IMG/VR virus record: IMGVR_UViG_3300025030_000080
Span: 12,088 to 76,087 of that record
Origin: a virus
Strand: one strand, 5' to 3'
Length of the DNA stretch: 64,000 nucleotides
Within the stretch, counting starts at the first letter, position 1. Each line of letters begins with the position of its first letter. Positions 2,752 to 64,000 of the stretch are shown here, piece after piece. A program made the position numbers and the translations under genes. The notes below the pieces were generated by a model. It saw nothing but the letters and a program-made list of their open reading frames with translations, was not told where the DNA came from and did not search any database.

Positions 2752-2752
2752 T

Positions 2753-4646: not shown

Positions 4647-4658
4647 TATTTTCCTTCT

Positions 4659-5138: not shown

Positions 5139-5146
5139 TTATATTG

Positions 5147-7257: not shown

Positions 7258-7601
7258 CTTATTCTCCTTATCATTATGGGTTTTTCTTTTTTCTCAGCGT
7301 TTAATTTTCTATTTTTATGCCCCTCTATCATTTTAGCCCTAAATTTTGGATTTTCCCATTGATTTTTAGTTCTTTCTGATGCTTTTCTTTTATATTCAGG
7401 GTCATTTAATTTTTTTCTGATTGAATCTATCATTCTATTTCTTATCTCTGGATTATTCCACCTATTTTTAATAATCTCTGACATTCTTATTTTTCCTTCG
7501 GGGGATACTTTTCTTCCTGTTTGCCCCATTATCATATTGGAACGGGCTATGGGATCTTTCCCCGTTTTAATATTAATAATTTTGTAAATAGATGAAATCA
7601 T
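7254..7601 (-). pseudogene. internally deleted GIY-YIG endonuclease (only the DNA-binding repeats remain)
   Basis: MISSIYKIINIKTGK joins directly to the W.NPE repeats; YIG and the catalytic R/E are missing. Confidence 0.65.
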
Positions 7602-7641
7602 TATAAATACTTTTCTTCTAATTCATTTCTGAGTCCCAAAT

Positions 7642-7875
7642 TTACTCCCCTTTCCGCAATAAAGATGGCAATGAAATAATATCTTCCGTGGTTACTTTAT
7701 TTGTCCATTCAAAAAATAATTCTTTTCCTTTGGTAAATACCGTTATCCAAATAGTAAAGAATAATATACCAATTTGAACAATACATTGCAAGAAAGATAT
7801 AATAGTTAATATTACAGATTTAAATAACTTTCCACTCCTTTCATATAAATCTTTTCCTTCATCTTTAACCTTCAT
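7642..7875 (-). CDS. small membrane protein
   Basis: hydrophobic central segment. Confidence 0.45.
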   Translation of the reverse strand: MKVKDEGKDLYERSGKLFKSVILTIISFLQCIVQIGILFFTIWITVFTKGKELFFEWTNKVTTEDIISLPSLLRKGE

Positions 7876-8540
7876 TTTATTTCCTCCATTAAATTGAAAA
7901 TTCCGTTTGAATCTGACTGAAAATGCCCTCGCATAAAATGATTATCTTTTCGGAAAAATTCTAATCCCCGTCTCTTTACGGAGTTGGAGAAGGTATAAAA
8001 ACATTCATCTGATTTTTTATGTTTATTTAATAGACCGATGAAACAAAATTTATTTATGCTATGATTCGCCGTCGTTCTATCGAATTTAAATTCAATTTCT
8101 GAATGATCCCTTCCAACTTCTCCACGTATAAATTCTACAATATCCGGTACTTTTATTTTGATTAATTTATTTTCAGAATATACTTTTGTAAAGTACTGCC
8201 ACATGCACCAACTAAGACGGTCATCAGGGTTTATTCCGTGGTTTTCTACGTATTCCAAATCAACTAATCCTTCTCCTTCCATTATAGTTTTCTTATATGA
8301 TTCTATACAATTTTTAGAATATGCGGTAGAGTCAGGGTATTTTGGTTTTCTTACTCTTTTCTTTTTTTCAACTACCATATCAAACTCTGTATGAACTAAT
8401 TTGATAGTTGCTTCTACTATTCCCTTTTTGGCATAAGCTGTTATTACAAAAGATTGGACATTATCAATACTTTCTCCAGTTTCTGCATTTATTACTTTAG
8501 TCCCTGGTATGGTACCATCACTAATAATTTTCAGTTTCAT
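7872..8540 (-). CDS. hypothetical protein
   Basis: 222-aa tiling ORF. Confidence 0.6.
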   Translation of the reverse strand: MKLKIISDGTIPGTKVINAETGESIDNVQSFVITAYAKKGIVEATIKLVHTEFDMVVEKKKRVRKPKYPDSTAYSKNCIESYKKTIMEGEGLVDLEYVENHGINPDDRLSWCMWQYFTKVYSENKLIKIKVPDIVEFIRGEVGRDHSEIEFKFDRTTANHSINKFCFIGLLNKHKKSDECFYTFSNSVKRRGLEFFRKDNHFMRGHFQSDSNGIFNLMEEIK

Positions 8541-8704
8541 TTGGTACCCTTCTTTTTCTTGATAATAACAATAGTAGATGGTTTATAATCATCTACCAAA
8601 GATTGTAAAGTTTCTTGAGGACAATTTCCACTATACTTACATTTACAAGTAGATGACCTTAAATAATTCTTGGCTGCGGTAACTAATTTCTCCGTGTAGT
8701 CCAT

Positions 8705-9115
8705 TTATTCCTCCTCCGTAAATACTTTATTCCAAGGAATTATTTTAGTTCTTTCCAAATTACGAACTTCAAATTGTTCCGGAAATCGGATAGCAAATTC
8801 TAACTCCTCTGATTCTTTGACGAGTACAAATAAAATCATATCTGCTTCCGTTCCTCTATCGAAATGAAAACGTCCACGTCTTCTTGGGCCACTACTACCT
8901 TTTCCATTTTTTCCCTTAGACTTTATCCATTCTTCGCAAGATTTAATTTCAATTTTTGCATCTCCCACCGTAACATCATATCCTGCCTTATAATCCGGTT
9001 TAATCGGAGGATCTTTGAAAGTTTCCTCCAAAAATCGGAGAACTTGGGGTGAACCCTCCGTCCAGTGCCTAGAAAAGAATTTTTCATTTTTTCTCCCTTT
9101 ATTGAAAAACTTCAA
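8705..9115 (-). CDS. PD-(D/E)XK-like nuclease (paralogue of 56909..57292)
   Basis: YD..IEIK core, GPRRRGRF, FVLV. Confidence 0.55.
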   Translation of the reverse strand: MKFFNKGRKNEKFFSRHWTEGSPQVLRFLEETFKDPPIKPDYKAGYDVTVGDAKIEIKSCEEWIKSKGKNGKGSSGPRRRGRFHFDRGTEADMILFVLVKESEELEFAIRFPEQFEVRNLERTKIIPWNKVFTEEE

Positions 9116-9124
9116 AATTGTTAT

Positions 9125-9829
9125 TTACAATGCTTCAAAATTTAAGTTTCTTTTATTTCTAGCTTTTGCTTTTCCTTCAACGGATTTGGCAATATGTTCC
9201 GGACTAAGATGTCTTCCAATAAGGGAAGCAGATAAATTGGCTAAATATTTTGGGTTATTGCTTCTCCTTATAAACCCTTCCGCCATTTTAGCTCTAAATT
9301 TTGGATCTGCCCATTGTTTTTTAGCAACAACTGACTGATTTTTTCTAAAATTAGGATCTTTTCCCCTTTCTTGATTCATTTCTAATATTTTTATTTTATG
9401 TTCAGGACTTTTCTTTCTGCCTTTCAAAAGAGAAATTACTTTATTTCTATATTCTGGATCTAACCAATGATCTTTACTAGTTTGAGAAATTATTTTCTTA
9501 ACTTCTTCTGAATGTTTATTTCCTAAACAAGAATTAGCATATCTACAAACATTATACCCATATCTATCGTCATATGATTGGTAGTAATCTAACCAAGTTT
9601 GCTCTCTGAAAGATAATTGAGACAAATCTTTTACTATTTCCATTATTATAAATTCAAAATTTTCTTCTCTATATTTATGATAAGCCCTTTGAAAATAAAG
9701 AGAATGGTGAGTTCCTTTACGAAGTTCGCATAAATGATTAGTCCACCTACTATATAAATTTACAGCAGATCCGACATATCTTTTTTCATTAATTTTATTA
9801 ACTATCATATAAATACCTGATACTTTCAT
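9125..9829 (-). CDS. GIY-YIG homing endonuclease with NUMOD3
   Basis: GIY..YVGSA..RW..H, REQ.WLD, GYN, KHSEE. Confidence 0.92.
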   Translation of the reverse strand: MKVSGIYMIVNKINEKRYVGSAVNLYSRWTNHLCELRKGTHHSLYFQRAYHKYREENFEFIIMEIVKDLSQLSFREQTWLDYYQSYDDRYGYNVCRYANSCLGNKHSEEVKKIISQTSKDHWLDPEYRNKVISLLKGRKKSPEHKIKILEMNQERGKDPNFRKNQSVVAKKQWADPKFRAKMAEGFIRRSNNPKYLANLSASLIGRHLSPEHIAKSVEGKAKARNKRNLNFEAL

Positions 9830-10478
9830 TCACCGTACCAAATTTTCCAACATTTCTAGACGGAAATCGGAACTTTCAATATATCTCCAAATTATGTTTT
9901 CCTCTCGATCTCTTCCATATGGTTCCATTCCTTGGGCCCAATCCGGAAAATAAGCCGGATTGCTCATTCTTAAATTCCACGAGTTCTTAACTTCTTTCAT
10001 CAAAGTTTCTGATAACCACCCTCCACGTTCCTCTACGAAAGTGTTATATTCTCCCCACGTTACGGGTCGGGGGGCGTTGTTTCGAACAAACCTAGCTGCA
10101 ATCATATTGTTTCCGTAGGAGAATCCTCCACCTAAAGGAAGATAGATGTCAGATATAGAACAGCAAATATCGTCGTCATTGATAGGAGAGTTGCCAAAAT
10201 CAAAAGTGGATGAAGAGAATCCCTGATTTTTCATTAATTTCATAAATTCCCCTAAGACTAGGGAACCTAGCCACTGACTATCTGACATTATAAGAAACAT
10301 TCGATGGAAATCTATCCCTAACATTTCCATTTGGCGCTTTACTCCGGGGGCGGAAGCGGAATAACTATATGTATCGAAAGTAATGTGCTTGATTCCAATT
10401 TCCTTTACTCTACTGATCCATTCTTCCACTGCATCTTTTTCATCGTTTACGAAAATCATTAAGGGTTCGATCCTAGCC

Positions 10479-10500
10479 ACCACCCTAACACCACCCTAAC
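10479..10500. repeat. 11-bp tandem duplication (ACCACCCTAAC x2) causing a frameshift
   Basis: read directly at 10479-10489 and 10490-10500. Confidence 0.95.
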
Positions 10501-10971
10501 CCCTGCATCTACAAGAGCTTTTGCAGCAAGTAAGCGTTGGGAGAAGGAAGGTGCCCCAGGCTCTAACTTTTTATTTAAAGCATCATCAGAAGATATCATA
10601 GTCATATGGACAGCAGAACCGGCCTTATTATCTGCCAAAGCTCTAACGTAGTCTTCTCTACCGATTAACGCTGATTTTGTGTTCACCATAATAGGATAAA
10701 CTTGATCTGATAAATAACGCATGAAATTCAAACTAATTCCTTTTTGCGCTTCGATAGGAAGAAAATCTTCAAATCGAATTCCTAGACGGATGGGAATTTG
10801 AAGACTTATTGCTTTTGGTAATTCTGGTCCATCAATCTTTTGGCCTCGAAATTTCATTAATTTATCCATCTCCGTTCGGAAGTATTCCGGTCGGCAATGG
10901 CGTATTCCAATTTCTTTGGGATTATCAAAAAATGATGTATATAATGATGATCGGAATGAATCTGCAAAACA

Positions 10972-11394
10972 ATTGTGAACTAAAATCCCCTCCGCGAAAT
11001 AATTATTATTGGGCACGCATTCAAAATTATAAACTATTTTTTTATTGCTAGTTTTTGCTCTATATATAGATTCAATTCTTCTCCATGCCCATTTATTAGA
11101 ATTATTGGGGGGATAAAAAACAATCATATCATGAATACTTAATTGTCCAGCATCTATCCATCCTCTACTAGTAAATACAGGATGTTCTAAAGTAAGTTTT
11201 AAAATTTTTTCTTTTATTTTGATAACTATCAAATCTTCTGCGGTTCGACTCATTATTTTTGTAACTACTGACTTTTCTGATTCTAAGTGAGTTCTGTAAG
11301 TTTTTAATGAAACTACCAAATCTCCTTCTTTGATATCCTTAATATTCTTTTTCTTTCCGCCCCACATTTGTATTTTAGTTAATGGCGGCAGACA
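10972..11394 (-). mobile_element. 141-aa mini-intein without endonuclease, inside the CxxxCxxC motif
   Basis: starts CLPPLT, block B TLEHP, block F VYNFEC..NYFAEG, ends VHN followed by Cys +1. Confidence 0.92.
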
Positions 11395-11688
11395 ATATTT
11401 GCACTGGTAACTGCAAGATAGGGCATCGTAAGTATCTGAATTTAAAGGAAGTGGACAATGAGCGGCTCTTAATGAAACTTCAATAAATGAAGTAATTTCC
11501 TCTTTATTTAGCATTCGCTGTTTAACTTCAAATTTTTCGCTATCGAATGAAAATTCGGAATAATTTACTTTACGGCCTTTCTCACGAACTAATCCTTTAT
11601 GCTTCTCCATTGATTCGAGTTGAGATCTACGAGGGATAATGGTTTTGACTATTTCGCGCAACTCCCAGTAATCTTTAAATATAGTCAT

Positions 11689-12515
11689 TTAATGATTTAT
11701 CTCCATTTCTTCTTCTCTTTCGTCAAATTCTACCACTTCGTCAATTGCCCATAGTAAAGAAGTATAATCAGGCAGTAAATATTTCATTTCTGATACGAAT
11801 ACTAAGGCTTGAGCTAATTCTTCCCATTGATCTTCCGTTGCTGCTCCTGATTTAAATAATTCAATAGTTCTGTCCATATATTCCCGTTTGGTCAATTATC
11901 TTTCCTCCCTTGTCCAGTGGGAGGATTAATTGGCCTTGGAGTTATGGGAGGAGAGTTCCATCCTCCTTTACACATATTAGTAGGTGGATGGGTAGGAGCA
12001 ATACCATTTGGTTTTTTAGTAGGAAGTTTTGGTTGGTAGCTATATCCACTACGTTTTGGCTCTCTCTCAGAATAACCCCAAATATAACATATTAATCCCC
12101 AAACTATAAATAATATTAAAGATTCCCATCGTTCAAATCCCGTCACGTTTTTCCTCCCTACTAGTTCTACAGAAAACGGAATAGTTTCAATTTATTTTAT
12201 ATCATTTTATTTGTAATTTTAATTCAATGTAGGTATTATGACCTTTCGTCTAACTCTCTTTCCGTCCCAAGATTCTGGTAAAAAACAAGCTCCCATATCC
12301 TCTTTTGTTTTGATATTCATTACAATCATAATTAATTTTTTAACTACTAAAAGGGGTCCTTTGTCATCTAATGTATATATTACTGTATATTTGGGTCCTA
12401 ATGGAAGTCTTTTTACAAATTCCTTTACTTCCCATTTATCAATATATAATTTTGGATTATCAACTTCTAGAATATCATCATTTGCTAAAATAGTTTTAGT
12501 TATCGAAAGTTCCAT
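11689..12515 (-). other. three small hypothetical CDSs (11689..11895, 11892..12146 membrane/Pro-rich, 12219..12515)
   Basis: tiling ORFs with RBS. Confidence 0.55.
12164..12190 (-). promoter_or_regulatory. putative phage promoter TTGAAA-N12-CTGTAGAACT
   Basis: one of four copies of the same bipartite motif, each upstream of a gene start. Confidence 0.55.
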
Positions 12516-12516
12516 T

Positions 12517-13452
12517 TCATCTCCCTAACCTATCTTTAAAATATTTTATAGTTTGTTCTAATCCGTCAGATAATGTAACTTTTGGTTCCCATTTTAATTT
12601 ATCTTTAGCCATAGTTATATCAGGTCTACGTCGAATGGGGTCATCTCCAGGCAATGGTTTATAAATTATCTCTGATTTTGATTTTGTTAATTTTATTATT
12701 ACTTGAGCCAACGTTTTTATATCTATTTCTATTGGATTACCTATATTTATAGGACCAGTAATATCATTGGTATTCATCATTTTTATAATACCTTCTATTG
12801 TATCATCTATAAAACAAAAAGAACGAGTTTGCCTTCCATCCCCATATATTGTGATAGGATCATTTTTTAAAGCTTGTAAAATAAAGTTAGATACCACTCT
12901 TCCATCTCCAGTGGCTAAATTAGGTCCATAAGTATTGAAAATTCTTACCACTTTGATAAAAAGTTTATGTTGTCTATAATAATCAAAGAATAAAGTTTCT
13001 GCACATCTTTTTCCTTCATCATAGCAAGATCGAATCCCTATAGGATTTACATTTCCCCAATAATCTTCATATTGAGGATGCCTCAAAGGATCTCCGTAAA
13101 CTTCCGATGTAGATGCTTGAAGTATTTTAGCTTTTGTTCGTTTTGCTAATCCTAGCATATTTATTGCCCCATGAACTATTGTTTTAATAGTTTGAACAGG
13201 ATCTTTTTGATAATAAATAGGAGAAGCAGGGGCAGCAAGATTATAAATTTCATCTACTTCAACATATAATGGAAAAGTTATATCGTGCCTTAATAATTCA
13301 AAATTAGGATTTGATAAAAGAGGAAGAATATTTTCTTTGGTGGATGAATAAAAATTATCTACACAAAGAACTTCATTTCCTTCATTTAATAATCTTTTAC
13401 ATAAATGAGAACCAAGAAATCCTGCTCCTCCAGTTACTAATATTTTTTTCAA
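12517..13452 (-). CDS. uxs: UDP-glucuronate decarboxylase (UDP-xylose synthase-like, extended SDR)
   Basis: [58 protein letters not shown]. Confidence 0.92.
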
Positions 13453-14636
13453 AATAATAATCCTTTTTTTTCTTCAATAGCTCCTTCTTCTTTTCTTCCA
13501 TAAATATTCATTCCATTTTTATCTTTATCCAAAATTATAATTTCTGGACTATCCTTCAAAGAAAAATATTGTCCTTTTCCATTCCAAATTTCTTTCATTC
13601 TATCGTAAGCCTCTGGTTGTCTAAATGTTATTTCCTCCATATCATCCCAACAAACCGAACCTTTTTCCATTATTATTTTACAAGCATGTTGAAAGGTGAA
13701 TTCATAGGGAACGAATAACCCATCCACTCCGCAACAACTTTCACAAGAATTACTAAATGGAAAATTTACGAAATCAGGAGAAGAAGCGGGGACATTTTTA
13801 CTTCTCAAAATATCTCTAAATTGTTTTCCTACGGGGGTCCAATTTTCATCTAGATTCTTTTCCAAAAGTTTGACGTAATTGAATCCCCGGCTTTCAAATT
13901 CTTTTTGAGCTATTTTGTAATTTGAAGTCCGATAATTAAAGAAACTAACATGTTTAGCTCCGGTACGGGATGCCATCTCGGCGTACCCTTCCAACATGTC
14001 TTCCTTCGAATTGATTCCCACTAGGATTGGTTCCCAACGTACAGCGGTCCAAATCCCTAGGTTGTTTAAAGTCTTGACTAGGGACCATCTCATAGATGCA
14101 GGGGGATTCCCCGGTTCTAATTTGTAATTGAGGGTATCACTACCCCCCATAATAGATACAATAACAGCTACATTCATATCTTTTAATAAATCAAGGTACC
14201 TATGCATTCCAATATAATGACTTTTAGTTTCTATGATCATAGGAACTTTATATTCTTTGAATAATTTGAGAACGGGGACTACTACATTATCTCTCATATC
14301 CTCTAGGCAGAATACTTCTGATTTACTTCCCATATTGAAAGGGAGTCCTCTACGAAGGCATTGAACGTGCCAATCTGTATATTGTTTATCAGAACCATAG
14401 GCTTTATCAAAAAGTTTCTTAAAATCTTCTGGATTACAAGCTCTGACTAAATCTCTTGACCATCCTTCGTAGTACCGTGTGTAAAGTCCTTCTTCCATTT
14501 CTCTACAAAAACAAAAATGACATGGAAAACTGCAGCCAGCAAAAATATCACCTCCAAATGCTTGGGGGCATACGAGGGAATCATTTCTAAATCCAACTAT
14601 AGACCCAAATTTTAGTTCTCTAATATCTTTTTTCAA
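13449..14636 (-). CDS. SPL-like radical SAM enzyme (paralogue of 9830..11688)
   Basis: [25 protein letters not shown]; C-terminal GLLF. Confidence 0.85.
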
Positions 14637-15034
14637 GATGTCATCTTTTCTTTCAACTCAGGTAGATCCTTTCTTTCTTTTAGACTAAAATTTCCCAAAA
14701 CTTTTTGTAGACACCGTTTTTGATCTTCTGCTTCATCTACTGTCATTTCTGCGTTATAAATAGGAATAATTTTATCGCCCTTTAAATTAAATCCCACATT
14801 GTAAATCCAAATTTTATTGATATTGGGTGTTATATGAGAAGTTGGTTTTACTAGTGCCCCAGTCCCAACAAAACCATTAAGATATGTAATAACGTGGGCT
14901 ATTTTTACACGAGAATAAAAATACTCTAATTCAATAAATAATGTATCTCTCTGTTTTTTAGTAATATTTTTATTCTTACAACTTTCGTTCCATATATTAT
15001 AGGTGTCTAGACTAAATGGAAGTTTTCTATCCAT
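14633..15034 (-). CDS. hypothetical protein
   Basis: 133-aa tiling ORF. Confidence 0.55.
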   Translation of the reverse strand: MDRKLPFSLDTYNIWNESCKNKNITKKQRDTLFIELEYFYSRVKIAHVITYLNGFVGTGALVKPTSHITPNINKIWIYNVGFNLKGDKIIPIYNAEMTVDEAEDQKRCLQKVLGNFSLKERKDLPELKEKMTS

Positions 15035-15069
15035 TTATTGATTCTCCTTAATCCTAGTATTTTCTTTCA

Positions 15070-15918
15070 TCAATACCCCACAGGAAGTTCAAATGGTGTA
15101 ATTAAATCTTCGGGTATTTCAATATCATCGAATTGAGGAATATTGGCAGATGATTTTCGTATATATTCCAAATATCCCACTCTACTTGGATCAATATCTA
15201 ATATTTTGGTAGCAGCTACGTCCATAACGTACATATCTTTTGTTGAAATTAAAATATTAGCTGGTTTAGGAATTCCGCATTGTTCCGAATATTCTGATCC
15301 TACGATACCATCTAAAACACAAGCAGCAACTCTATCTTTAATAAGAAAATATAAGTCATGAAGTCTTTTATGAAGAATATCACAACTTCCACGTGGGTGC
15401 ATACTACCTTTTTGGGCCATCATGCCCATACAATTTTTGATAGATATCGTAGTTCCCGACATATTATGAACTTTCAATTTAGGAACATTTATGACGAAAT
15501 CGCATTCCAACATAGTATTAGAAAATTTGGCCCCGAATAAGGATAAATATCCATCCCTACGGTAAAGGGTAAACTCATGAAACCGGGGTCCTTCCTGAAG
15601 TCCTATTAATTGTACTCCATATTTTTTAGATAATTGGTCATAACCAGACAATTTAATTGTATGCTCAAATTGGTCTTTAAATCCACAATCTCCTACTATT
15701 ATATCATTAGCCCCTTCTCTTATCAAATATTCTATAACTAGAGAAACAACTTCAACTCTGGTAGTAGATGCTATATCCCATCGGGTGGGAGGACATACGA
15801 GGTTGGGTTTAATGAAAACTTTTTTACCACTACAATCTGGAAAGTATTTCCAAAATTCTTGGGATATATTTTCTAATTTTAAATTTGCGTAATCAGATTC
15901 TCTATGAAATTGGATCAA
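15070..15918 (-). CDS. DUF362 family protein (Fe-S associated)
   Basis: KKVFIKPNLV, INVPKLKVH..G.T.SIKN.MG, LDGIVG, D...ILD. Confidence 0.85.
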   Translation of the reverse strand: MIQFHRESDYANLKLENISQEFWKYFPDCSGKKVFIKPNLVCPPTRWDIASTTRVEVVSLVIEYLIREGANDIIVGDCGFKDQFEHTIKLSGYDQLSKKYGVQLIGLQEGPRFHEFTLYRRDGYLSLFGAKFSNTMLECDFVINVPKLKVHNMSGTTISIKNCMGMMAQKGSMHPRGSCDILHKRLHDLYFLIKDRVAACVLDGIVGSEYSEQCGIPKPANILISTKDMYVMDVAATKILDIDPSRVGYLEYIRKSSANIPQFDDIEIPEDLITPFELPVGY

Positions 15919-20411: not shown

Positions 20412-20657
20412 CTATTTCTTGACGGCGTTCAGATTTAAGGAAAATCCTTCAGCGCCAAGAATGGGAATAAATCCTCCAGTACTGGCGATTATGTTAGTTT
20501 TCCCCGATTGAGATTTACCAAAATCTTGTTTTAAATCTACTTCAATGATGGGGATATTATCATTTTGTACTTCCATTATTATGTTTTTAATTTTAATTTT
20601 ATTTTGATTCTCTAATTCTGCTATTCTTTCTTTAAGTTTCTGAATATCTTCGGTCAT
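20412..20657 (-). CDS. small conserved protein
   Basis: DL..DFG.S.SGKT.IIASTGG motif. Confidence 0.6.
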   Translation of the reverse strand: MTEDIQKLKERIAELENQNKIKIKNIIMEVQNDNIPIIEVDLKQDFGKSQSGKTNIIASTGGFIPILGAEGFSLNLNAVKK

Positions 20658-21352
20658 TTTTGATCTCCTTTTGGTTGGAAGGGTTGGATTAAACTAGGAT
20701 CTCTTATGATATTCCAATGATTTCCTGCTCCCCAAAGTAATAGCTGAGGGGAGAATACTATACGCTCGGTCCTTTTCCAAGTAAACCACAAAATTGCTTG
20801 TAATTGATTCGGAAGTAATTTATGTTTTCTAGCTACTTTGAAAAATACTTCGGCCATTTCGTCGTATCTTTTTGGGGAAGATACTAATTTCAACTCTGCT
20901 ACTTCTTTCATACGGTATCGTCTACCAGAATAAATGGAACACATATGCCCATCAAGTGTAATATATTTAGGGTCTTTGGGCAGCAAAATATTTAAGTAAA
21001 AATTTCTAGTTTTTGGTCCTGAAGTTTCTGCTAGGAAATCCTTATTTCCGATTAGGAATTCAATTGCTCTACTTTTACATTGATTATAAGTAGAAACTAT
21101 AATTTTATTTGGAGGGATTTTATTTTTAATACCGATCATAATACTGACGAGGGACCGGATATTACCCATATAATCATTGTTGGGGGATAATGCAACGAAT
21201 GCGGCTACTGTTGGGCAGAATCCGAATCCATGATAATTTGCTACATTTTTTAACATTTCATTATATCTATGGTAGGCTACTTTTCCTTCTTCTTTGTCGA
21301 TGGAATCTGATAAAGAGTAAACTTTTTCTATGTTGATTGTTTTAGATTTCAA
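20654..21352 (-). CDS. HhH DNA-glycosylase-fold protein (DUF7178-like)
   Basis: VALSPNN..GN, GPKTRNFY.NI, TLDGHM, QLQAILW. Confidence 0.6.
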   Translation of the reverse strand: MKSKTINIEKVYSLSDSIDKEEGKVAYHRYNEMLKNVANYHGFGFCPTVAAFVALSPNNDYMGNIRSLVSIMIGIKNKIPPNKIIVSTYNQCKSRAIEFLIGNKDFLAETSGPKTRNFYLNILLPKDPKYITLDGHMCSIYSGRRYRMKEVAELKLVSSPKRYDEMAEVFFKVARKHKLLPNQLQAILWFTWKRTERIVFSPQLLLWGAGNHWNIIRDPSLIQPFQPKGDQK

Positions 21353-22215
21353 AAGAAAAGCCCTGCTAATTCTTTCTTTATGTTTTTTTCTATCTTTAAA
21401 ATTGCATTATTTTGTTTTATCAACGATTTGATAATAGCGGGTCTAGCCCAATTTCTTTGGAATTTGGACCATTCTTTGTTTTTATCTCCTTTTTCATTTT
21501 TATATAACATACCCATTGGTAAAAACCCTGCCTTGACCGTTTTAAATAGCCTATTTTCTGCTTTTTGTATAGTATCGTTAGGAAATCCTATTAAAACAAA
21601 ACATCTGAGTTGATTGAAAGTAAACCCTGCTTCTTTCAGCATGCTCCCCGCTTTGATTAAAGATTCATATTTTTCCTCCGTATCGTATGCAAAGAATATT
21701 TGAGAAGGATTGGCTTTTATGAGTAGATCTACTATCCATGGTTTTAATTTAGTTGCTTCTAATCCTCCAGTAAATTCTGGTCGATGATTTTGGCGTGAAA
21801 GCATTAAAAAGACATTTCTAATATGATTTTCTGAGCAAGCTAATAGGTTATCATCTAGTATATTCCAACCATCTTTTATTTCTAATTCCCTGATATTTCC
21901 TTCTCTTTTCCAAACAGAACAAAACCAACATTTATTTGGGCATCCTCTAGATGTAATGACATATCCTAATTTTAAATATTTACCAGGGATAAATTCTTCC
22001 CCTTTATTTCCTAATGCAGGACCACCAATATTTATAGGAGCAACATCTTTCCAACTTTTTTCTAAAATTTCTATTAATTTTAGGTCCCAAGTAAAAGTAA
22101 AGGATATCTCCACTTTTTTTATTTCTGGTAATAGTAACCCAGGTGGTCCGAAGAATGCCAAGGAATCATCTGGGGATGCTTTAGTTTTTCTAGGGAATAC
22201 TCTTGCTATAGTCAT
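21349..22215 (-). CDS. radical SAM enzyme
   Basis: TSRGCPNKCWFC, LDDNLLA, FVLIGF; degenerate B12-binding-like N-terminus (IGGPA); C-terminal GLFF. Confidence 0.88.
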   Translation of the reverse strand: MTIARVFPRKTKASPDDSLAFFGPPGLLLPEIKKVEISFTFTWDLKLIEILEKSWKDVAPINIGGPALGNKGEEFIPGKYLKLGYVITSRGCPNKCWFCSVWKREGNIRELEIKDGWNILDDNLLACSENHIRNVFLMLSRQNHRPEFTGGLEATKLKPWIVDLLIKANPSQIFFAYDTEEKYESLIKAGSMLKEAGFTFNQLRCFVLIGFPNDTIQKAENRLFKTVKAGFLPMGMLYKNEKGDKNKEWSKFQRNWARPAIIKSLIKQNNAILKIEKNIKKELAGLFF

Positions 22216-58233: not shown

Positions 58234-60525
58234 TTAAATGTTCGCTCCTACAGGATCTTCTCCATTTCCATAATACCGATCAATCCAAGTCGATTTCGGC
58301 TTCTGAGGATGACATGTGGTTCCATACACTCTACCTCGGCCATAGTACCGAACAGGGGTACCAACTTCCAGATACGCTTTACATTCCTTACAAAAGGCCG
58401 GAAACTTCAACCGGATTTTCACCATTGCTTTCCTCCCCTGTGGATTTGATGAACAGGATAGCATTATGAAATTGCTTCAGAAATCTTTTTGCTTGCTTGG
58501 AATTCATCTTTGGGGATCGGACATTGGTAAATATTACAAATCTCCCCTTGGTAAATCGGTTGAGGATGACTTCTTGAGTGCTATTCATTTTACTTTTTTC
58601 TCCCTCTTTTCAATTCTGGCAACCTTGGCCAAAAGTTGCTTCACCACTCCAGGCTGCTTGTTAGAACGAGCAATCCTTATCTGATCTCCTAATTCAGTAA
58701 GCACCCTTGCATTTTTCTCCCTCAAAGTTTCTTCCATCACCTTACCTCCCTTTTTCTTTTGGTAATTCCGTCTTCCCAGTGATATGATAATAAAGAAGAA
58801 AATCAAACGCTTCCCTTTGAAGGTTGAACGTACCAATAATCCGATCCGTTTCCCATACCTGGGGAGCGTTGGGGAAGAGTTGCCTCATCTCCCCCTCCGC
58901 TATCACCCAGGGTTTGTGGACACGGGAACCTTCATATTTGATTTTGATCATCCCGTTTCCTCCATCAACGGAGGACACGGTTGGAGCAGATTCTCGATGC
59001 ATTGGGGGCAAGTCTTGGTATCGTCCCCCAACTCCGCGATGTAACACTTCCGGCATTCCACGCACCGTTTGATTTTCCCTTCTTCCTTGCTCTTGTGGGA
59101 AATCTTCTTGTAACCCATCTCCATTCTCCTTTCTTTCTCTTGGGGCCTCTTTACGAGACCAAGTTGTAAGGGAGCGTGAACAACCAACCGCTCTCCTCAA
59201 CGACTGCGTACCACATTCCGTACCTACGATTCCAAAACTTGAGGATGACGTTAAATTTCGTTTTCATTTGGCTCACCCCCTTACTTTTGGAAAGATTCCA
59301 AAATCTTTCTCGCCTCTTCCCCCAAACGGAAATTCTCTTGGATAATTTGAAGACATTTGTCACAAGTCGGACTCTTGGAAAATTGAGGGGTTGAAAATCT
59401 CTTACCACAAGTCGCCTTGAACGTCTTTTGATTCTCAACGGCGAATGGGATCACTTCCTTGAAAACTTTAAATGTTTCTGAGAAATGAGTATCCATTCTG
59501 ATCTCCTTAATCCCGGTCAGCGTATTTTGCTGCCCAACGTGCCCAACCGTCACGGTGTTTCCTCTCTTCCCTTGGGGAACGTTCGCGTATGATTCTGTTC
59601 CCCTCTGCCGATACCTCATGGTGGCAGGTCCTACCCTGGGACCCCTCTTGTTTGCGAATCCTACGCAATTCTCCCTTGGTCATTTCCCTTCTCCTTGGTC
59701 CTTGTCTTTTTCGATCCGATTCTCCAACGAATGATATTCTTCGTAAACTTTCCAATACAACTCGGTGGTCCACCAATTTCCCTTTTCATCTTGGGGCTGG
59801 AAAAGCCCCGCTTTGGAAAGAACGTAGAGAACTTCATTCACATCCTCTAAACCGAACAGAGGCTTTTCCACGCAATCTTGAAATACTTCGGGGATAAAGT
59901 CCATTTCTACGTCGCTTTCTTCGTAGGAATCGTGAAAGATAATTCCTATGATCTGATCTACTTTTTTCTTATCCATTTTATTTCACCCCCTTTCATTTAT
60001 GACGTATCTACCTACCTACCTGCAACCATCGTTCCGGTAGAGGTTCCCTTTTGGAAAAGAAACCCCTCGTCGCAAAGATGGTTATATTTAATCTTCCGTC
60101 CATCCCATCTCCCCGGTTCCGGGCCACACCGTTCATTTCTCCTTTCTTTCTTCCTCCAATGGAGTTATTTCCGGTTCCCCATTTTCTTCGGCTTTACTTC
60201 CTTCCAAATTGTAAAGATTAGTAACTACCGAATCCAAATTACTTTTCGCCGTAGTCGATCCATTACTACTTAGTCCTAACGATGTATGGCAATGAGAAGG
60301 TCCACATCTGGATTGGCGTCGAATCGCGCTTGATACCGATTTGGACGGGGATTTTACGATCTCCGTCCAATAATTCGTTTTCCCCAAACTAGCCGTAAAT
60401 CCCATCGTCTTTACTACATCCTCTTTTCTTGGTTCGCAATCTCCACAAACTCTAAACTTCCTCCCGATATGTTTGGGATGTTTATCGCTAAATTCGCTTC
60501 CACATTCTTTACAAATGATTAACAT
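58234..60525 (-). other. cluster of very small early CDSs (boundaries uncertain), including 59680..59976 and 60133..60525
   Basis: multiple short RBS-led ORFs. Confidence 0.45.
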
Positions 60526-60541
60526 TTTGGTTCCCTTTTTC

Positions 60542-61012
60542 CTATCGGGTTAAAGAACCAAGAATAACTTCTCCTAAATAACCATGGTAATCGCCCTCGG
60601 AATCTTTTTCCGTTCCGACGAAAAACCATACATCTCCCTCCGGGGAAAAGGAGTAGGATTCATTTTCGTCCCCTTCGTCCTCCTTAAAACCCTTTATTTC
60701 GAGAACGATAACGAGATCATTACGACTTTCGGCCCATTCCGGATTTAAGTCCCCGCGAAGAACATTTCGAAGGTTAACGGCGTAGTCCACTGCGATTTCC
60801 GCCGAGGAAAAAGTCCCTACCATAAAATTTTTATTACCATTATAAAGATTTACGGAGAAAACGGAATTGAAATGCTTTCGTTCGTTTAGGAAATCTACCA
60901 AATCCGTTTCGGAGTTTTCTTTCTTTTCAAAATTAACTTTTACTTTTACTTTTTCCATCTCATTCCCCTCCGTTTTAGTATGAACCAAAAGTTTTTTTTC
61001 TCCCCTTAACAT
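60542..61012 (-). CDS. acidic hypothetical protein, CA/TG-depleted
   Basis: likely start MEKVK with RBS GGAGG; no Gln or Cys. Confidence 0.6.
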   Translation of the reverse strand: MLRGEKKLLVHTKTEGNEMEKVKVKVNFEKKENSETDLVDFLNERKHFNSVFSVNLYNGNKNFMVGTFSSAEIAVDYAVNLRNVLRGDLNPEWAESRNDLVIVLEIKGFKEDEGDENESYSFSPEGDVWFFVGTEKDSEGDYHGYLGEVILGSLTR

Positions 61013-61361
61013 TGATAGCAGATTCCGTTCGCGTCCAATTCGGCCTTCCGTTTACATTTGGGGCAAAAAGAGTATTCGATACCTACCTCGCCATTCTCTC
61101 GGGAATCCTCCCCGGATTCCAGTTTCTCCTCTAACTCGCGGATTTTCATTTCTAATTCTTCGATTTCCATTTGGAGCGTTTTACTTTTCGGTGGTTCCAT
61201 TTTCTTTTTCCTCTTTTTTGATTCCACAGCGAAGGATAAAACTTTCGAAATCAGACGAAGGATTTTCTACGGAATAAATCAGTTTTCCGTTCCGGTAAAA
61301 ACTGAATTTTTCTCCTACTTTCCGGTACGTTTCCATTTCCCTTCCCCTTTATTTTATTTTG

Positions 61362-61763
61362 TTAGACTCCGTACTTTCTAATATAATTGATATCAAAAAC
61401 CGTTCCTTTCCCTCCTCGTTCCTCTTCGAAACCATTCTTTCTAAGTTCGGCCCTCGTTGGAAAGGAATAAAAACCGTCGAGGTAATGTAAACAACTTTCT
61501 TCGGTAGAAAGACTTTTGGTTAAGGAATAAACCGATTCCCCCACAAAAAACTCGAAAATTACTACGGAATCGGGGTAACTCGTAAAACGATGGACTCCGT
61601 TTATCGTCCCGGAATAAATGGAAGCGTTACCGGAAGAAACTAATATTCTACCATAAAAACCGCCTTTCTTTTCTTCCAAAAAGTATCCGGCTCTAATACC
61701 TTTCCATTTACTTCGGTCTACTTCTAACTTTTCCAATCTTTCCTTAAGAGTTCTTTTATTCAT
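61362..61763 (-). CDS. hypothetical protein, CA/TG-depleted
   Basis: RBS; 133 aa; no Gln. Confidence 0.6.
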   Translation of the reverse strand: MNKRTLKERLEKLEVDRSKWKGIRAGYFLEEKKGGFYGRILVSSGNASIYSGTINGVHRFTSYPDSVVIFEFFVGESVYSLTKSLSTEESCLHYLDGFYSFPTRAELRKNGFEEERGGKGTVFDINYIRKYGV

Positions 61764-61990
61764 TTCCTTCTCCCTTTCGTCCTAAAGGACGAAGATTAGA
61801 ATTACGAACATCCAGAAAGCTCCGGCGATTAAAACCATCGTTCCGATCTCTTTCGCGGTTTCCATTTTCTTCTCCTTTCCCCCCGGAATTTGGTTTAAAG
61901 AGAAACCGGGGAAAGTTGGTCGCCCGATCCCGTCCGGGCGGATATATCGGGGATATTATACCCTAAAACCGAAACGTGTATTATATAGTT

Positions 61991-62776
61991 TATAAGTATC
62001 GGATTTATAAGGGGATTTTCTAATCTATATACCCTATAAACTTAGGGTTCCTTTATAACCTATCGAATATAAACGGTTTTTCGTCGCGGCTTTTATCGTT
62101 ATAAGTACCCGAAATATAAGGGGAAAATATCGAATTATTTCGGCCAGAAACGTTCGTTATAGGGTACCTTGGGCGTTACCTACCTAAAACGTACTTGGTC
62201 CAGACCTATCTAAGCGTACTTGGCTGTATACCTATATTTTTTTCGTTTTGGTTGGAAATTTTTCGAAAATTATTAGTAAAGGTTACCGTTTCGTAATCGT
62301 TTTATAAGGTAAAATGTTTCGATAGGTAATACGATATTTTATAGAATAAAACGAATAATAGGAAAAATTATCGGCCTAATTTTGTTTATAAGGCATTTTC
62401 TTTCTTCGGTAATAGGATATACGGGATATTTATAAGTAGGCGAAAAATAACGATTTCCCCGCGTTCTATTTTAAAAGATCGTCGTTTATAGGTCGATTAA
62501 ATACGGCGAAAAACCGTTTATTATCGAATAGTTATAGAGAAAAATAAAGTATATAAACGAATAAGGATATAGATTAGATAAAATATCCCTTATAATTCGG
62601 GTAGTTATAGGGTATAGATAAACGGAAACGAATATATAGGACGGAACGAATAGCCCTTTATTATTAAGTAGTTATAAAGTAGCCCTAAGACTATCTACCG
62701 GATAGAGTATTATTTCCCTTTTATTATCGAATAGTTATAAGCGATTCTAATTCCCCTTTATAATTAAATAGATACG
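61991..62776. repeat. degenerate ~24-bp repeats in inverted arrays within a non-coding region
   Basis: TTTATTATCGAATAGTTATA exact at 62517 and 62720; variants at about 62588, 62654 and 62753; opposite-orientation variants at about 61991, 62054 and 62100. Confidence 0.6.
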
Positions 62777-63040
62777 AGGGAAGAAAAACGAAAATATATT
62801 TTCTATCCGAAAAGGGAAATTCTATAAATATCCGAATCTATTACCGTTTCGGGAATAGGTATAAACGGGGTACCAGTTTAATATTTCCCTTTCGTTTTTA
62901 ATTCTTTTCCGGTATCGTATAGGTAGATAAAAAACGTTCCTTTAAATCCGATTATAAAGGCGCCCCCGAATTAGAACCGGACGGAATCCCTTACCGTACC
63001 GGAACCGTTAAAAGGGGAATTACCCCGGAAAGGTTAGAAA

Positions 63041-63445
63041 ATGAAAACCGAAAAAAGTAAGGCGGAATTAATCGCCGAATTAAACGATCTCCGTTCCGCT
63101 ATCGACGCGAAGAAAGCGGAGCGAAAGAGTCTCGCGGAGAAGGAAAAGACTCTCCGCGAATCCGCGAAAAACGCCGGGATCGTACTTTCGGAAACCTTTA
63201 CCCGTTCCGAATCCGTAGCGGTCGCGGTTTCTTCCCTCTCGAACGGCGAACCGTTCTCCCTCTCGGGAATCGCGGAAAAGGCGAATCGGATATTTATCGA
63301 AAGGGGAAAGAAGAATAACGGGAAGGAGTCCGAAACCGTTTCCCGTCTTCTTCTTCCGTTCGCGGTATCGATCGGACTCGTAGAGAAAACCGGAAAGGAC
63401 TCTTACCGGTTCGTTAGTCCGGTCGCGGGAAGGAAAGTAGCGTAA
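63041..63445 (+). CDS. coiled-coil + winged-helix-like protein; the only divergent gene; CA/TG-free
   Basis: followed by a terminator; similar to 55320 and 16056 (FTR..AN..F..NNGKE..V). Confidence 0.8.
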   Translation: MKTEKSKAELIAELNDLRSAIDAKKAERKSLAEKEKTLRESAKNAGIVLSETFTRSESVAVAVSSLSNGEPFSLSGIAEKANRIFIERGKKNNGKESETVSRLLLPFAVSIGLVEKTGKDSYRFVSPVAGRKVA

Positions 63446-63466
63446 AGAAAATTCGAGAGTAAGACG

Positions 63467-63500
63467 AACCCTCCGGACCGAAAATCCGGAGGGTTTTTTT
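63467..63500 (+). terminator. intrinsic terminator
   Basis: AACCCTCCGGA-CCGAAAA-TCCGGAGGGTT followed by a T tract. Confidence 0.9.
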
Positions 63501-63572
63501 ATTTCCGAAAATAAAAGTAAAACTGTTATTAGATTGATCCCGTAATCAAACAAAAAAAGTAGAAAATAAGAC

Positions 63573-63603
63573 AGGCTCAGGAGAATATCCCTGGGCCTTT
63601 TTT
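63573..63603 (+). terminator. second intrinsic terminator-like hairpin
   Basis: AGGCTCAGG..CCTGGGCCT followed by a T tract. Confidence 0.65.
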
Positions 63604-64000
63604 ATTGGCGAGAATCAGGTCAGATCAATAATAATCGAATTGGTATAGGAGAATGGTGGGGGAATGAAAGAGTAATGGGGAAGAGGGTTGGGGGAATAGA
63701 TTGGGGATGAAAGGTGCCCGCCACTCCCCATATCAAGTAAATTAAAAAATATTGTCAATTCTATCCCACATTTTATAAGCATACGGGATATCCCTATACT
63801 GTAAGGTAATTATTACAGATTTCCCGATAACAATCGTCAATCTCATTCCCCAAATATCCTCTCAGATTGATCAGTGTCATATCTAACTGAACGGGATATG
63901 GGAGATGGTGAAATAAGTCAACTGAATCAATCCTCGTTATCATATGATATGGATATACTACTGGTATGGGGATAGGGGGGAGAAAATCCCCCAATGGTCG

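What the first reader, a model, noticed from the sequence alone, without database searches (positions are those of the whole stretch)
62396..63523. A 1.1-kb zone, including a whole gene, that is essentially free of the CA/TG dinucleotide
Seen: by manual reading, 62396-63523 contains only two CA/TG dinucleotides, one CA at 62874 and the ATG start at 63041. Base composition predicts on the order of a hundred or more (rough estimate). The 134-aa protein accordingly has no His, Gln, Cys, Trp or internal Met, and its codon junctions also avoid CA/TG. CG and TA are abundant, so this is not an AT/GC effect. Inference: strong selection against one dinucleotide in the first-entering or first-expressed DNA. 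Either a phage bulky modification targets CA/TG and would block host RNA polymerase or ejection, or a host defence reads CA/TG-containing motifs. A CpA-directed deamination process is an alternative, but it explains the intact CG-rich gene poorly.
Basis: partly seen in the sequence, partly recalled or inferred. Interest (0 to 1): 0.95.

Follow-up and report, generated by a model that had tools for sequence, protein, structure and literature searches.

The report
Phage early-control DNA purged of CA/TG
An uncultured ~100-kb groundwater phage and its relatives write their first control region and one whole gene without the DNA step CA/TG, giving up five amino acids, most likely so that this stretch escapes a chemical mark the phage seems to put at CA/TG elsewhere.

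Summary
Window 62396-63523 holds one CA and one TG (the start codon) against about 135 expected. No other stretch of the 76-kb record or of a 90-kb relative is like it.

It is not an assembly artefact. Fifteen sequencing runs hold the sequence, and five diverged lineages (down to 50% protein identity) keep the same clean gene and upstream region.

Leftwards the depletion fades smoothly over about 3.75 kb of early genes. Rightwards it stops just after the gene's terminator. The zone sits where the leftward early/replication genes and the rightward packaging genes diverge, and it holds nine copies of a 26-nt promoter- or operator-like motif.

Selection, not mutation bias, keeps it clean. Both CG and TA are enriched, codon junctions are cleaned, and hundreds of substitutions between relatives created almost no CA/TG.

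New indirect evidence: 6-bp palindromes are avoided genome-wide except those containing CA/TG. Phages M6 and F8, which modify thymine at TG, show the same pattern; T7 and lambda do not. M6 and F8 have no such zone, so modification at TG alone does not produce one.

The cause remains inferred. This scan has noted similar zones in other phages. I found no paper describing them.

The parts
62396..63523 (.). Core zone with only two CA/TG dinucleotides (as reported)
   Evidence: 1 CA plus 1 TG against about 135 expected. CG O/E 2.24, TA 1.17.
61764..63040 (.). 1.28-kb noncoding control region between the divergent early genes and the 134-aa gene
   Evidence: no ORF here. CA/TG O/E 0.21/0.27 over 61764-62395 and 0.03/0 over 62396-63040; aligns with relatives L002 and L003.
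61988..62453 (-). Four leftward-pointing copies of the 26-nt motif CCCTTATAWWTCGRRTAGTTATAR (starts 61988, 62051, 62097, 62428)
   Evidence: PWM scores 19-30 bits, against 0-2 hits at the 14-bit threshold in shuffled genomes; the same arrangement in L005 and L003.
62514..62779 (+). Five rightward-pointing copies of the same motif (starts 62514, 62587, 62654, 62717, 62754), 262-527 nt upstream of the ATG
   Evidence: Outside the zone only two hits pass the 14-bit threshold (15.9 and 18.6 bits), about the number seen in shuffled genomes.
63041..63445 (+). Gene for a 134-aa protein: a long N-terminal helix plus a winged-helix domain. It has no H, Q, C, W or internal M, and its only TG is the start codon
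   Evidence: AF2 model pLDDT 87. Winged-helix matches to Fur (Z 8.2) and DpnI wH (Z 7.7). Orthologs in five lineages are all clean.
63466..63503 (+). Intrinsic terminator of the 134-aa gene; the purge ends 20 nt after its T-run
   Evidence: 12-pair stem followed by a T-run; the first CA/TG lies 73-113 nt after the stop codon in all five lineages.
59800..61763 (-). Graded zone covering the first leftward early genes (61362-61763, 61006-61227, 60542-61012, 60133-60525). CA/TG O/E rises from about 0.3 to about 0.8 with distance
   Evidence: The same gradient appears in L005 and L003.
63524..64000 (.). Right flank of normal composition with a second terminator (63573-63598) and G-run repeats. In relatives the terS gene follows
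   Evidence: O/E 0.98/0.92.. The record ends here, and contig L013 of a relative starts at the equivalent place.
20654..22215 (-). Candidate DNA-base enzyme pair (inferred link): a DUF7178 protein with a HhH-GPD DNA-glycosylase fold, overlapping a radical SAM gene by 4 nt
   Evidence: Pfam. AF2 model pLDDT 91. Z 11.4 to T. maritima OGG; the top 20 matches are all HhH-GPD superfamily (DNA glycosylases and the related queuine-salvage DUF2419).
1996..15918 (-). Further candidate modification genes (inferred link): ThyX, a DUF2156-like GNAT, an intein-split radical SAM, an NAD-dependent epimerase/dehydratase (UDP-GlcA decarboxylase per an earlier scan note), a second radical SAM and DUF362
   Evidence: The radical SAM at 13449-14636 resembles M6 gp53 weakly (E 1e-5 over 84 aa).

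Best explanation
The zone is the phage's immediate-early control region: a divergent array of nine promoter- or operator-like repeats, the first rightward transcription unit (one winged-helix protein gene and its terminator), and the start of the leftward early operon. Continuing purifying selection keeps the base-pair step CA:TG out of it.

The most likely reason is that the phage places a bulky base modification at TG (which is CA on the other strand) throughout its chromosome. The DNA that must work before any phage protein exists is kept chemically ordinary by containing no target sites. Host RNA polymerase must read that DNA, and it is exposed to modification-dependent nucleases.

Selection would be strongest where DNA is used or exposed longest, and would fade over the 3-4 kb that are transcribed or drawn in during the first minute or so.

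Shown: the purge, its conservation, its selective origin, its boundaries, and that CA/TG-containing palindromes are exempt from avoidance. Inferred: that a modification exists, that it sits at TG, and why its absence is needed.
For: (1) Selection, not chance or artefact.
- 2 CA/TG against 135 expected.
- The sequence is held at 97-100% by 15 runs of 6 studies.
- The same clean gene is present in all five diverged lineages, and the clean upstream region in the three whose contigs reach it (window, L002/L005, L003, L016, L019).
- 232 and 435 substitutions separate the orthologous zones. One third of all possible substitutions would create CA/TG, yet the zones stay clean.

(2) Acts on double-stranded DNA.
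- CA and TG are absent alike, in coding and noncoding DNA and at codon junctions.

(3) Boundaries follow early function.
- The purge ends 73-113 nt after the stop codon, just past the terminator, in all five lineages.
- The leftward gradient is the same in three lineages.
- The motif array is confined to the zone and conserved.

(4) CA/TG sites behave as protected elsewhere in the genome.
- Six-bp palindromes containing CA/TG: mean O/E 1.08 against 0.65 for the rest (p = 0.0026, best of 10 dinucleotide classes).
- In the 90-kb relative G001: 1.00 against 0.61 (p = 0.001).
- After controlling for GC content and CG presence: +0.36 (p = 0.015) and +0.40 (p = 0.0002).
- Positive controls with published TG-context thymine hypermodification: M6 +0.79 (p = 0.0002), F8 +0.27 (p = 0.004).
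- Negative controls: T7 and lambda +0.12, not significant.

(5) Candidate enzymes.
- A HhH-GPD-fold protein coupled to a radical SAM gene.
- A radical SAM weakly like the M6 thymine isomerase gp53.
- A sugar-nucleotide enzyme and an aminoacyl-tRNA-type GNAT.

(6) Published precedent.
- TG or TG/TC specificity of thymine hypermodification (PMC6449724, PMC12191111).
- An NTG-preferring phage thymine dioxygenase (PMC13229309).
- Nucleases that attack hypermodified DNA (PMC12191111).
Against: - M6 and F8, which modify T at TG, have no CA/TG-free zone (lowest 500-nt O/E 0.66 and 0.60). Such a modification is therefore not sufficient to produce one.
- No homolog of the M6 5-hmdU DNA kinase or aGPT-Pplase2 was found by sequence. 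No TET/JBP or ParB was found in the 76% of the genome held.
- SIO1 and ICBM2 carry distant DUF7178 homologs without a zone.
- The 4-bp palindromes CATG and TGCA are not exempt from avoidance (0.79, 0.78).
- The palindrome signal in G000 weakens to p = 0.04 when CG-containing sites are excluded. It is absent in 17-22-kb fragments of relatives, which are underpowered.
- The replication genes must also be transcribed from parental DNA, and they have normal CA/TG content. Transcription through the presumed mark must therefore be possible later in infection.
- No chemical or read-kinetic evidence of any modification exists.
Confidence: 0.45

Rival explanations
1. A host defence, not a phage modification, reads CA/TG (or short motifs containing it) on unmodified incoming DNA. 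The zone is the leading end of the chromosome and sits unprotected until early anti-defence proteins are made. The rest of the genome is covered by those proteins.
For: - The zone lies just upstream of terS, where fixed genome ends usually lie.
- The early operon points inward, as in T7.
- The smooth 3.75-kb gradient fits an exposure-time model.
- The G000 record ends 477 nt right of the edge, and contig L013 of a relative starts 415 nt right of it.
- A strain in run X12 switches to another lineage's sequence at 63511.
- An ArdC-like anti-restriction domain pair is encoded among the mid-window ORFs.
Against: - No known nuclease, deaminase or CRISPR PAM reads the bare step CA/TG (my knowledge).
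- The zone freely contains 6-bp palindromes that the rest of the genome avoids: ATCGAT, CGATCG, ACCGGT, TCCGGA x2, GGTACC x2. It is therefore not generally hardened against restriction.
- The exemption of CA/TG palindromes elsewhere points to protection at those sites.
- Contigs of relatives run straight through the supposed end (L002, L003, L005).
- Only contigs, not raw reads, could be laid, so no termini were seen.
Confidence: 0.2
2. The purge serves a cis-acting function of the region itself. Candidates: an origin or operator array whose DNA mechanics need the absence of the flexible CA:TG step; or a region that must contain no NTG start codon, no TTGACA/TGn promoter element and no host-factor site on either strand.
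For: - Nine conserved repeats in divergent orientation.
- The only TG in 1.1 kb is the real start codon.
- All bacterial start codons (ATG, GTG, TTG, CTG) contain TG, and both the -35 consensus TTGACA and the extended -10 contain TG or CA (established knowledge).
Against: - The purge covers every reading frame of a 405-nt coding sequence on both strands and costs five amino acids. That is far more than avoiding spurious starts or promoters would need.
- It continues as a gradient through three or four further genes.
- The replication-initiator-like gene lies 44 kb away.
Confidence: 0.12
3. A local mutational process, such as a CpA-directed cytosine deaminase (RIP-like) or damage to exposed single strands, erodes CA/TG in this stretch.
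For: CA/TG depletion with TA gain is the signature of fungal RIP (PMC2621366, listed). TA is 1.4x enriched relative to the rest of the genome.
Against: - CG is enriched 2.8x, more than TA. This needs A>G/T>C changes as well as C>T, so no single chemistry explains it.
- The ORF is intact and conserved at 50-75% identity in five lineages with a confident fold.
- Codon junctions are cleaned in a coordinated way.
- The edge is sharp to within about 100 nt and tied to a terminator.
Confidence: 0.04

Closest known systems
First-step-transfer (pre-early) DNA of phage T5 and the T7 leader with gene 0.3 (ocr)
   Same: A short stretch holding the earliest promoters and genes, placed next to the packaging or terminal region, in which a recognition sequence is avoided while the rest of the genome is protected by other means. 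An early operon oriented so that transcription runs into the genome.
   Different: In T5 and T7 specific 6-bp restriction sites are missing. Here a bare dinucleotide is banned at the cost of five amino acids, while ordinary restriction-type palindromes are present. A terminal repeat or physical end was not demonstrated.
TG-context thymidine hypermodification (Pseudomonas phages M6, F8 and 14-1; ViI; phiW-14): PMC6449724, PMC8989533, PMC12191111
   Same: The same dinucleotide, and the same genome-wide exemption of CA/TG-containing palindromes from avoidance. An SPL/gp53-like radical SAM and a HhH glycosylase-fold protein are present.
   Different: No 5-hmdU DNA kinase, aGPT-Pplase2 or ThyA-type hydroxymethylase was detected by sequence. 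M6 and F8 have no CA/TG-free zone. No chemical data exist for this phage.
Phage thymine dioxygenase 5mYOX176 with its ParB activator (NTG preference, PMC13229309)
   Same: A post-replicative, dinucleotide-specific mark on T in TG.
   Different: No Tet_JBP or ParB_N domain in the record.
Repeat-induced point mutation in fungi; vertebrate CpG islands
   Same: Regional CA/TG depletion (RIP), or regional CG excess relative to TG/CA (CpG islands).
   Different: Those patterns are by-products of mutation. This one is maintained by selection in an intact, conserved gene, with both CG and TA enriched.

Membership tests
T5-type first-step-transfer / T7-type leader DNA | Lies at the physical chromosome end that enters the cell first (often within a terminal repeat) | tested here: inconclusive
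   Only Logan contigs could be laid, so no read termini were seen. The G000 end and the L013 start fall 477 and 415 nt right of the edge, but the L002, L003 and L005 contigs bridge that place. A twofold unitig depth at 63332-64000 is inconsistent between runs and fits shared strains.
T5-type first-step-transfer / T7-type leader DNA | Carries the earliest promoters and genes as self-contained units | tested here: inconclusive
   A divergent 9-copy promoter-like array, a gene and a strong terminator are present. No expression data exist. Sigma-70 consensus matches do not exceed shuffles.
T5-type first-step-transfer / T7-type leader DNA | Depleted of host restriction sites | tested here: not met
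   The zone contains ATCGAT, CGATCG, ACCGGT, TCCGGA x2 and GGTACC x2, all avoided in the other 72 kb. Only CA/TG is banned.
5-hmdU-derived thymidine hypermodification pathway (M6/ViI type) | 5-hmdU DNA kinase (P-loop, M6 gp54) | tested here: inconclusive
   No match to M6 gp54 at E <= 1 in the 76-kb record. The record is 76% complete, and a single-sequence search can miss distant relatives.
5-hmdU-derived thymidine hypermodification pathway (M6/ViI type) | aGPT-Pplase (HhH glycosylase-like group transferase) | tested here: inconclusive
   No sequence match to M6 gp51. The DUF7178 protein has the HhH-GPD fold (Z 11.4 to Tm1821 OGG) but only Z 4.3 to PaMx11 gp46.
5-hmdU-derived thymidine hypermodification pathway (M6/ViI type) | SPL-like radical SAM acting on modified thymine (M6 gp53) | tested here: inconclusive
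   The 13449-14636 product aligns with M6 gp53 at E 1e-5 over 84 residues only. There are three radical SAM genes in all.
5-hmdU-derived thymidine hypermodification pathway (M6/ViI type) | TG (or TG/TC) sites protected in virion DNA | tested here: inconclusive
   Indirect only. CA/TG-containing 6-bp palindromes escape avoidance in G000 and G001, as in M6 and F8 and unlike T7 and lambda. The 4-mers CATG and TGCA do not.
Winged-helix DNA-binding proteins | Three-helix bundle with a beta-hairpin wing | tested here: met
   AF2 model pLDDT 87 with helices at 55-64, 74-87 and 94-110 and strands at 71-73, 114-116 and 121-124. Fur DBD Z 8.2, DpnI wH Z 7.7. No Pfam or PHROG family matches.
RIP-like / deaminase hypermutation | One-chemistry transition spectrum with decay of coding capacity | tested here: not met
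   CG is 2.8x and TA 1.4x enriched. The ORF is conserved in five lineages.

The most novel reading that the evidence does not exclude
Phages that mark their DNA at a short motif keep a 'mark-free landing strip': the immediate-early control region and first genes are purged of that motif, so that they function as ordinary DNA before any phage protein exists. If this is general, both the modification motif of an uncultured phage and its earliest-acting DNA can be read from sequence alone. Here the motif would be TG/CA, made by a pathway (HhH-GPD protein plus radical SAM enzymes, with no kinase) that has not been described.
Probability: 0.35. Interest if true: 0.9.

Novelty: new variant of a known kind. 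Interest (0 to 1): 0.8.

Why it matters
A complete ban on one dinucleotide over more than 1 kb is one of the strongest local sequence constraints seen in a phage genome. It holds through 50% protein divergence and costs five amino acids. It shows that something in the infected cell reads the two-letter step CA:TG on double-stranded DNA.

- Zones like this give a sequence-only way to predict which uncultured phages modify their DNA, and at which motif.
- They locate the DNA that acts first in infection.
- They flag undescribed modification pathways.

The palindrome-exemption test used here reproduces on M6 and F8 and is a second, independent sequence-only predictor.

I found no description of such zones in four full-text searches. 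Earlier notes of this scan report similar zones in several unrelated phages, so the phenomenon may be widespread.

Tried and rejected
**No similarity or family found**
- blastn of 60000-64000 against 50,697 phage records: no match.
- Pfam and PHROGs on the 134-aa protein and nine neighbouring early proteins: nothing significant.
- ESM Atlas: only sub-threshold leads to winged-helix domains of Mrr_N, HARE-HTH and AbiEi type.
- Rfam on 61300-64000: nothing.
- Sigma-70 promoter scan: no more matches than in shuffles.
- Tet_JBP, ParB_N, M6 gp54 and M6 gp51 searched in the record: none found. The record is only 76% complete.

**Search for a CA/TG-free zone in characterised phages: none found**
- F8 and M6.
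- SIO1 and ICBM2.
- The first 50 kb of ViI. The remaining 107 kb of ViI and all of phiW-14 were not fetched.
- An earlier scan note of such a zone in PB1-like phages was therefore not reproduced in F8.

**Physical genome ends: inconclusive**
- All runs are held as contigs only.
- The about twofold depth of the unitig at 63332-64000 in X1 and X3 starts at 62829 in X5, and every break is a strain bubble. I read this as shared strain segments, not a terminal repeat.
- Contig ends cluster near the zone (L001, L013, L016, L019, G000), but three other contigs break inside terL, so this is only suggestive.

**Weak or negative points in the palindrome test**
- In 17-22-kb fragments of relatives (L005, L012, L013) there is no signal; these have too few sites.
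- The 4-bp palindromes are not exempt.

**Tools**

**Rejected readings**
- An assembly chimera is rejected: 15 runs and five lineages carry the zone.
Full report
**1. The observation**

Window 62396-63523 (1,128 nt) contains one CA (62874) and one TG (63042, part of the ATG at 63041). Base composition predicts 70.6 CA and 64.0 TG; Poisson P is about 3e-55. CG stands at 2.24x and TA at 1.17x expectation. Relative to the rest of the genome, CG is 2.8-fold and TA 1.4-fold enriched. The other dinucleotides change by at most about 30%.

The four longest CA/TG-free gaps of the window (482, 480, 168 and 168 nt) are all here. The next longest anywhere is 66 nt.

The window is bases 12088-76087 of a 76,087-nt IMG/VR virus record. 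No other 500-nt window of that record falls below O/E 0.64.

The depleted area is larger than reported:
- 61764-62395 runs at O/E about 0.2-0.3.
- The first leftward genes run at about 0.3-0.8.
- Values return to about 1 some 3.75 kb left of the edge.
- On the right they return to 0.96 at once.

**2. Not an artefact, and conserved**

Fifteen public runs from six studies hold the 3-kb stretch at 97-100% of sampled words. They are groundwater and soil metagenomes, some of which may be the source of the record. Independent Logan unitigs reproduce the sequence.

Orthologs of the 134-aa gene were found in four further lineages:
- L001/L002/L005 (71% aa identity)
- L003/L006 (50%)
- L016 and L019 (more distant; terL 79-80% identical to the L002-type terL)

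In every lineage the gene is free of CA/TG apart from the start codon, with one extra site in L005. The first CA/TG appears 73-113 nt after the stop codon.

The leftward gradient, in O/E per 250 nt counted from the edge:
- Window: 0, .03, .03, 0, .11, .28, .23, .31, .40, .52, .55, .33, .85, .56, .73, 1.04
- L005: 0, .07, .11, .15, .54, .21, .42, .62, .54, .53, .67, .73, .74, .94, 1.01
- L003: 0, .03, .16, .04, .22, .29, .27, .30, .42, .44, .50, .50, .72, .87, .70, .75

A 90-kb relative that CheckV rates 97% complete (G001) covers the structural module and most of the leftward module. It has no second zone; its minimum O/E is 0.56.

**3. Selection, not mutation bias**

The protein lacks H, Q, C, W and internal M (P about 1e-6). 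Given its sequence, the phage's codon usage would give 38 CA/TG (minimum 24 in 5,000 draws) against 1 seen. With clean codons only, about 28 junction CA/TG are still expected and none is seen.

A paralog at 55320-55787 (BLASTP E 2e-6) sits in normal DNA and uses Q, M and the rest. The fold therefore does not require the odd composition.

One third of all possible single substitutions in the zone would create CA/TG. There are 232 substitutions to L002 and 435 to L003 in the zone, yet each lineage stays nearly clean.

Both CG and TA are enriched. These are the two products one transition away from CA/TG. That is what removal by selection predicts, and it is not what a single deaminase chemistry would give.

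**4. Anatomy**

Almost all genes of the record run leftward from 61763:
- small early ORFs
- an ArdC-like anti-restriction domain pair and a sigma-70 region-2 domain
- helicases, primase and DnaB
- radical SAM, DUF362, sugar and GNAT genes
- ThyX and the clamp
- a PolA with an N-terminal UDG domain and an intein
- gp32, UvsY and RecA

In relatives, the DNA right of the zone carries terS, an endolysin and terL. In G001 about 35 kb of rightward structural genes follow and meet the leftward module head-on.

The zone is therefore the single divergent junction of a circular map of roughly 100 kb.

The 1.28-kb noncoding part holds nine copies of a 26-nt motif, consensus CCCTTATAWWTCGRRTAGTTATAR:
- Four copies point left (61988-62453) and five point right (62514-62779).
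- They score 19-31 bits, against 0-2 hits at the 14-bit threshold in shuffled genomes.
- The rest of the record has only two hits at that threshold (15.9 and 18.6 bits).
- The same layout is present in L005 and L003.
- The motif does not fit the sigma-70 -35/-10 spacing. It may be a promoter of another kind or an operator.

The 134-aa protein is a 38-residue helix followed by a winged-helix domain (pLDDT 87). It gives only generic winged-helix matches: Fur Z 8.2, DpnI wH Z 7.7, linker histone, Rok. Its family has only seven 90%-identity clusters.

**5. What reads CA/TG?**

The zone is not generally hardened against restriction. It contains ATCGAT, CGATCG, ACCGGT, TCCGGA (x2) and GGTACC (x2), which are rare or absent in the other 72 kb.

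That led to a genome-wide test on 6-bp palindromes, which this phage avoids in general (mean O/E 0.65-0.74):

| Genome | With CA/TG | Without | p | Coefficient after GC and CG control |
|---|---|---|---|---|
| G000, outside the zone | 1.08 | 0.65 | 0.0026 (best of ten dinucleotide classes) | +0.36, p = 0.015 |
| G001 | 1.00 | 0.61 | 0.001 | +0.40, p = 0.0002 |
| M6 | 0.93 | 0.18 | 2e-6 | +0.79, p = 0.0002 |
| F8 | 0.95 | 0.70 | 0.015 | +0.27, p = 0.004 |
| T7 | | | not significant | +0.12, p = 0.08 |
| lambda | | | not significant | +0.12, p = 0.17 |

M6 and F8 are phages whose thymine hypermodification has been mapped to TG or TG/TC: Flodman et al. 2019, PMC6449724, and the END-nuclease preprint, PMC12191111.

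I read this as indirect evidence that CA/TG-containing sites are shielded in this phage's DNA, that is, that a mark sits at TG/CA.

Caveats:
- The 4-mers CATG and TGCA are not exempt.
- The G000 signal drops to p = 0.04 without CG-containing sites.
- Short fragments of relatives show nothing.

**6. Candidate enzymes**

The DUF7178 product (20654-21352) overlaps a radical SAM gene by 4 nt. It folds with pLDDT 91 into a HhH-GPD DNA-glycosylase fold. Its best match is T. maritima OGG (Z 11.4, 178 residues aligned). The top 20 matches are all HhH-GPD superfamily (DNA glycosylases and the related queuine-salvage DUF2419). PaMx11 gp46, a 5-PmdU glycinyltransferase, matches at Z 4.3.

The radical SAM at 13449-14636 resembles the M6 glycinyl-thymine isomerase gp53 weakly (E 1e-5).

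The canonical starters were not found:
- no M6-type 5-hmdU DNA kinase and no aGPT-Pplase2 by sequence
- no TET/JBP and no ParB
- ThyX rather than a ThyA-type hydroxymethylase

If a thymine mark is made, it is made by an undescribed route.

**7. Why a mark-free zone?**

Two kinetic models fit the one-sided gradient and the terminator-bound right edge:
- (a) Unaided host RNA polymerase must read the parental, marked chromosome until early proteins adapt it.
- (b) The first DNA inside the cell must not attract modification-dependent nucleases, such as the END family (PMC12191111), until inhibitors are made.

In both models, selection per site falls with the time or distance before the first phage proteins act. 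At bacterial transcription rates (my knowledge of T7 entry, about 40 bp/s) that is a few kilobases, which matches the 3.75-kb gradient.

I cannot separate (a) from (b). Sense-strand CA (template-strand TG) is more depleted than sense-strand TG in two of the three graded genes. That is a weak hint towards (a).

**8. Counter-evidence**

M6 and F8 have no zone, nor do SIO1, ICBM2 or the first 50 kb of ViI. A TG-directed mark is therefore not sufficient, and DUF7178 alone is not predictive.

The replication genes have normal CA/TG content although they too are first transcribed from parental DNA.

No physical end could be shown. Only contigs could be laid. Their breaks are strain bubbles, and the about twofold depth at 63332-64000 starts at a different place in X5.

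Suggestive points for a genome end or module joint near 63,524-64,000:
- The record ends 477 nt right of the edge.
- Contig L013 of another lineage starts 415 nt right of it.
- Four of 12 terL-bearing contigs break within or close to the zone.
- A strain in X12 switches lineage exactly at 63511.

**9. Comparison and novelty**

The nearest known idea is motif-poor leader DNA: T5 first-step-transfer DNA without EcoRI sites, and the T7 leader with ocr (my knowledge). The nearest known chemistry is TG-context thymidine hypermodification.

What is new:
- A whole dinucleotide is banned at the cost of five amino acids.
- The shape of the ban is conserved across lineages.
- It is probably tied to the phage's own mark rather than to host restriction sites.

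Four full-text searches found no description of such zones.

Earlier AI notes of this scan report similar CA/TG-free zones, and GA/GG- and AG/CT-free ones, in other uncultured phages. I used them as leads to the three papers, which I then read. I could not reproduce the PB1-like claim in F8.

**10. Verdict**

- A selective purge of a DNA-level target is essentially certain.
- The 'own-modification-free early zone' reading is the best supported, at about 0.45.
- A host reader acting on the leading end stands at about 0.2.
- A cis-acting constraint stands at about 0.12.
- A mutational origin stands at about 0.04.

Noticed in passing
window 20654-22215 (-): A DUF7178 protein folds as a HhH-GPD DNA glycosylase (Z 11.4 to T. 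maritima OGG). It overlaps a radical SAM gene by 4 nt, between primase and DnaB. The family has over 160 clusters in metagenomes and distant homologs in SIO1-like roseophages, Anabaena A-4L and Synechococcus S-CRES3.
   Followed up: partly
whole record G000 and relative G001: 6-bp palindromes are broadly avoided (ACCGGT, CCCGGG and CGTACG 0 copies; ATCGAT 1 against 12.8 expected), except those containing CA/TG. M6 and F8 show the same exemption; T7 and lambda do not. This may serve as a sequence-only indicator of TG-directed modification.
   Followed up: yes
window 34270-36288 (-): A 672-aa protein of unknown function (phrog_1735, E 2e-279). It is 52-57% identical to proteins of phiCbK-like Caulobacter phages and Ralstonia RSL1. 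It has hits in 559 phage records, including many from Salmonella, Klebsiella, Escherichia, Serratia and Dickeya hosts. No Pfam domain.
   Followed up: no
L004 7420-11031, L004 5399-7372, window 10459-11688: Inteins interrupt the UDG-fused family-A DNA polymerase, the clamp-loader ATPase and one radical SAM gene. Two GIY-YIG proteins lie nearby (window 5519-6568 and 9125-9829).
   Followed up: no
window 55320-55787 (-) and 16056-16937 (-): Paralogs of the winged-helix domain of the 134-aa protein sit in compositionally normal DNA and use the amino acids that the clean copy lacks. The 55320 pair gives BLASTP E 2e-6. In G001 a 278-aa open frame matches at E 9e-5.
   Followed up: partly
window 63511 (run X12): A co-occurring strain shares the zone at 97% or more of sampled words, then switches to the L002-type sequence exactly at the right edge of the purge. 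This is a recombination joint at the module boundary.
   Followed up: partly
window 61776-61800: The leader of the first leftward gene holds a hairpin (GTCCT-AAA-AGGAC) and flanks that are almost invariant among the window, L002 and L003. They are much better conserved than the surrounding noncoding DNA.
   Followed up: no
L007+L008 (Pseudomonas phage F8, NC_007810): F8 has no 500-nt window with CA/TG O/E below 0.60. An earlier scan note of a CA/TG-poor stretch in 'PB1-like' phages does not hold for this Pbunavirus record.
   Followed up: yes
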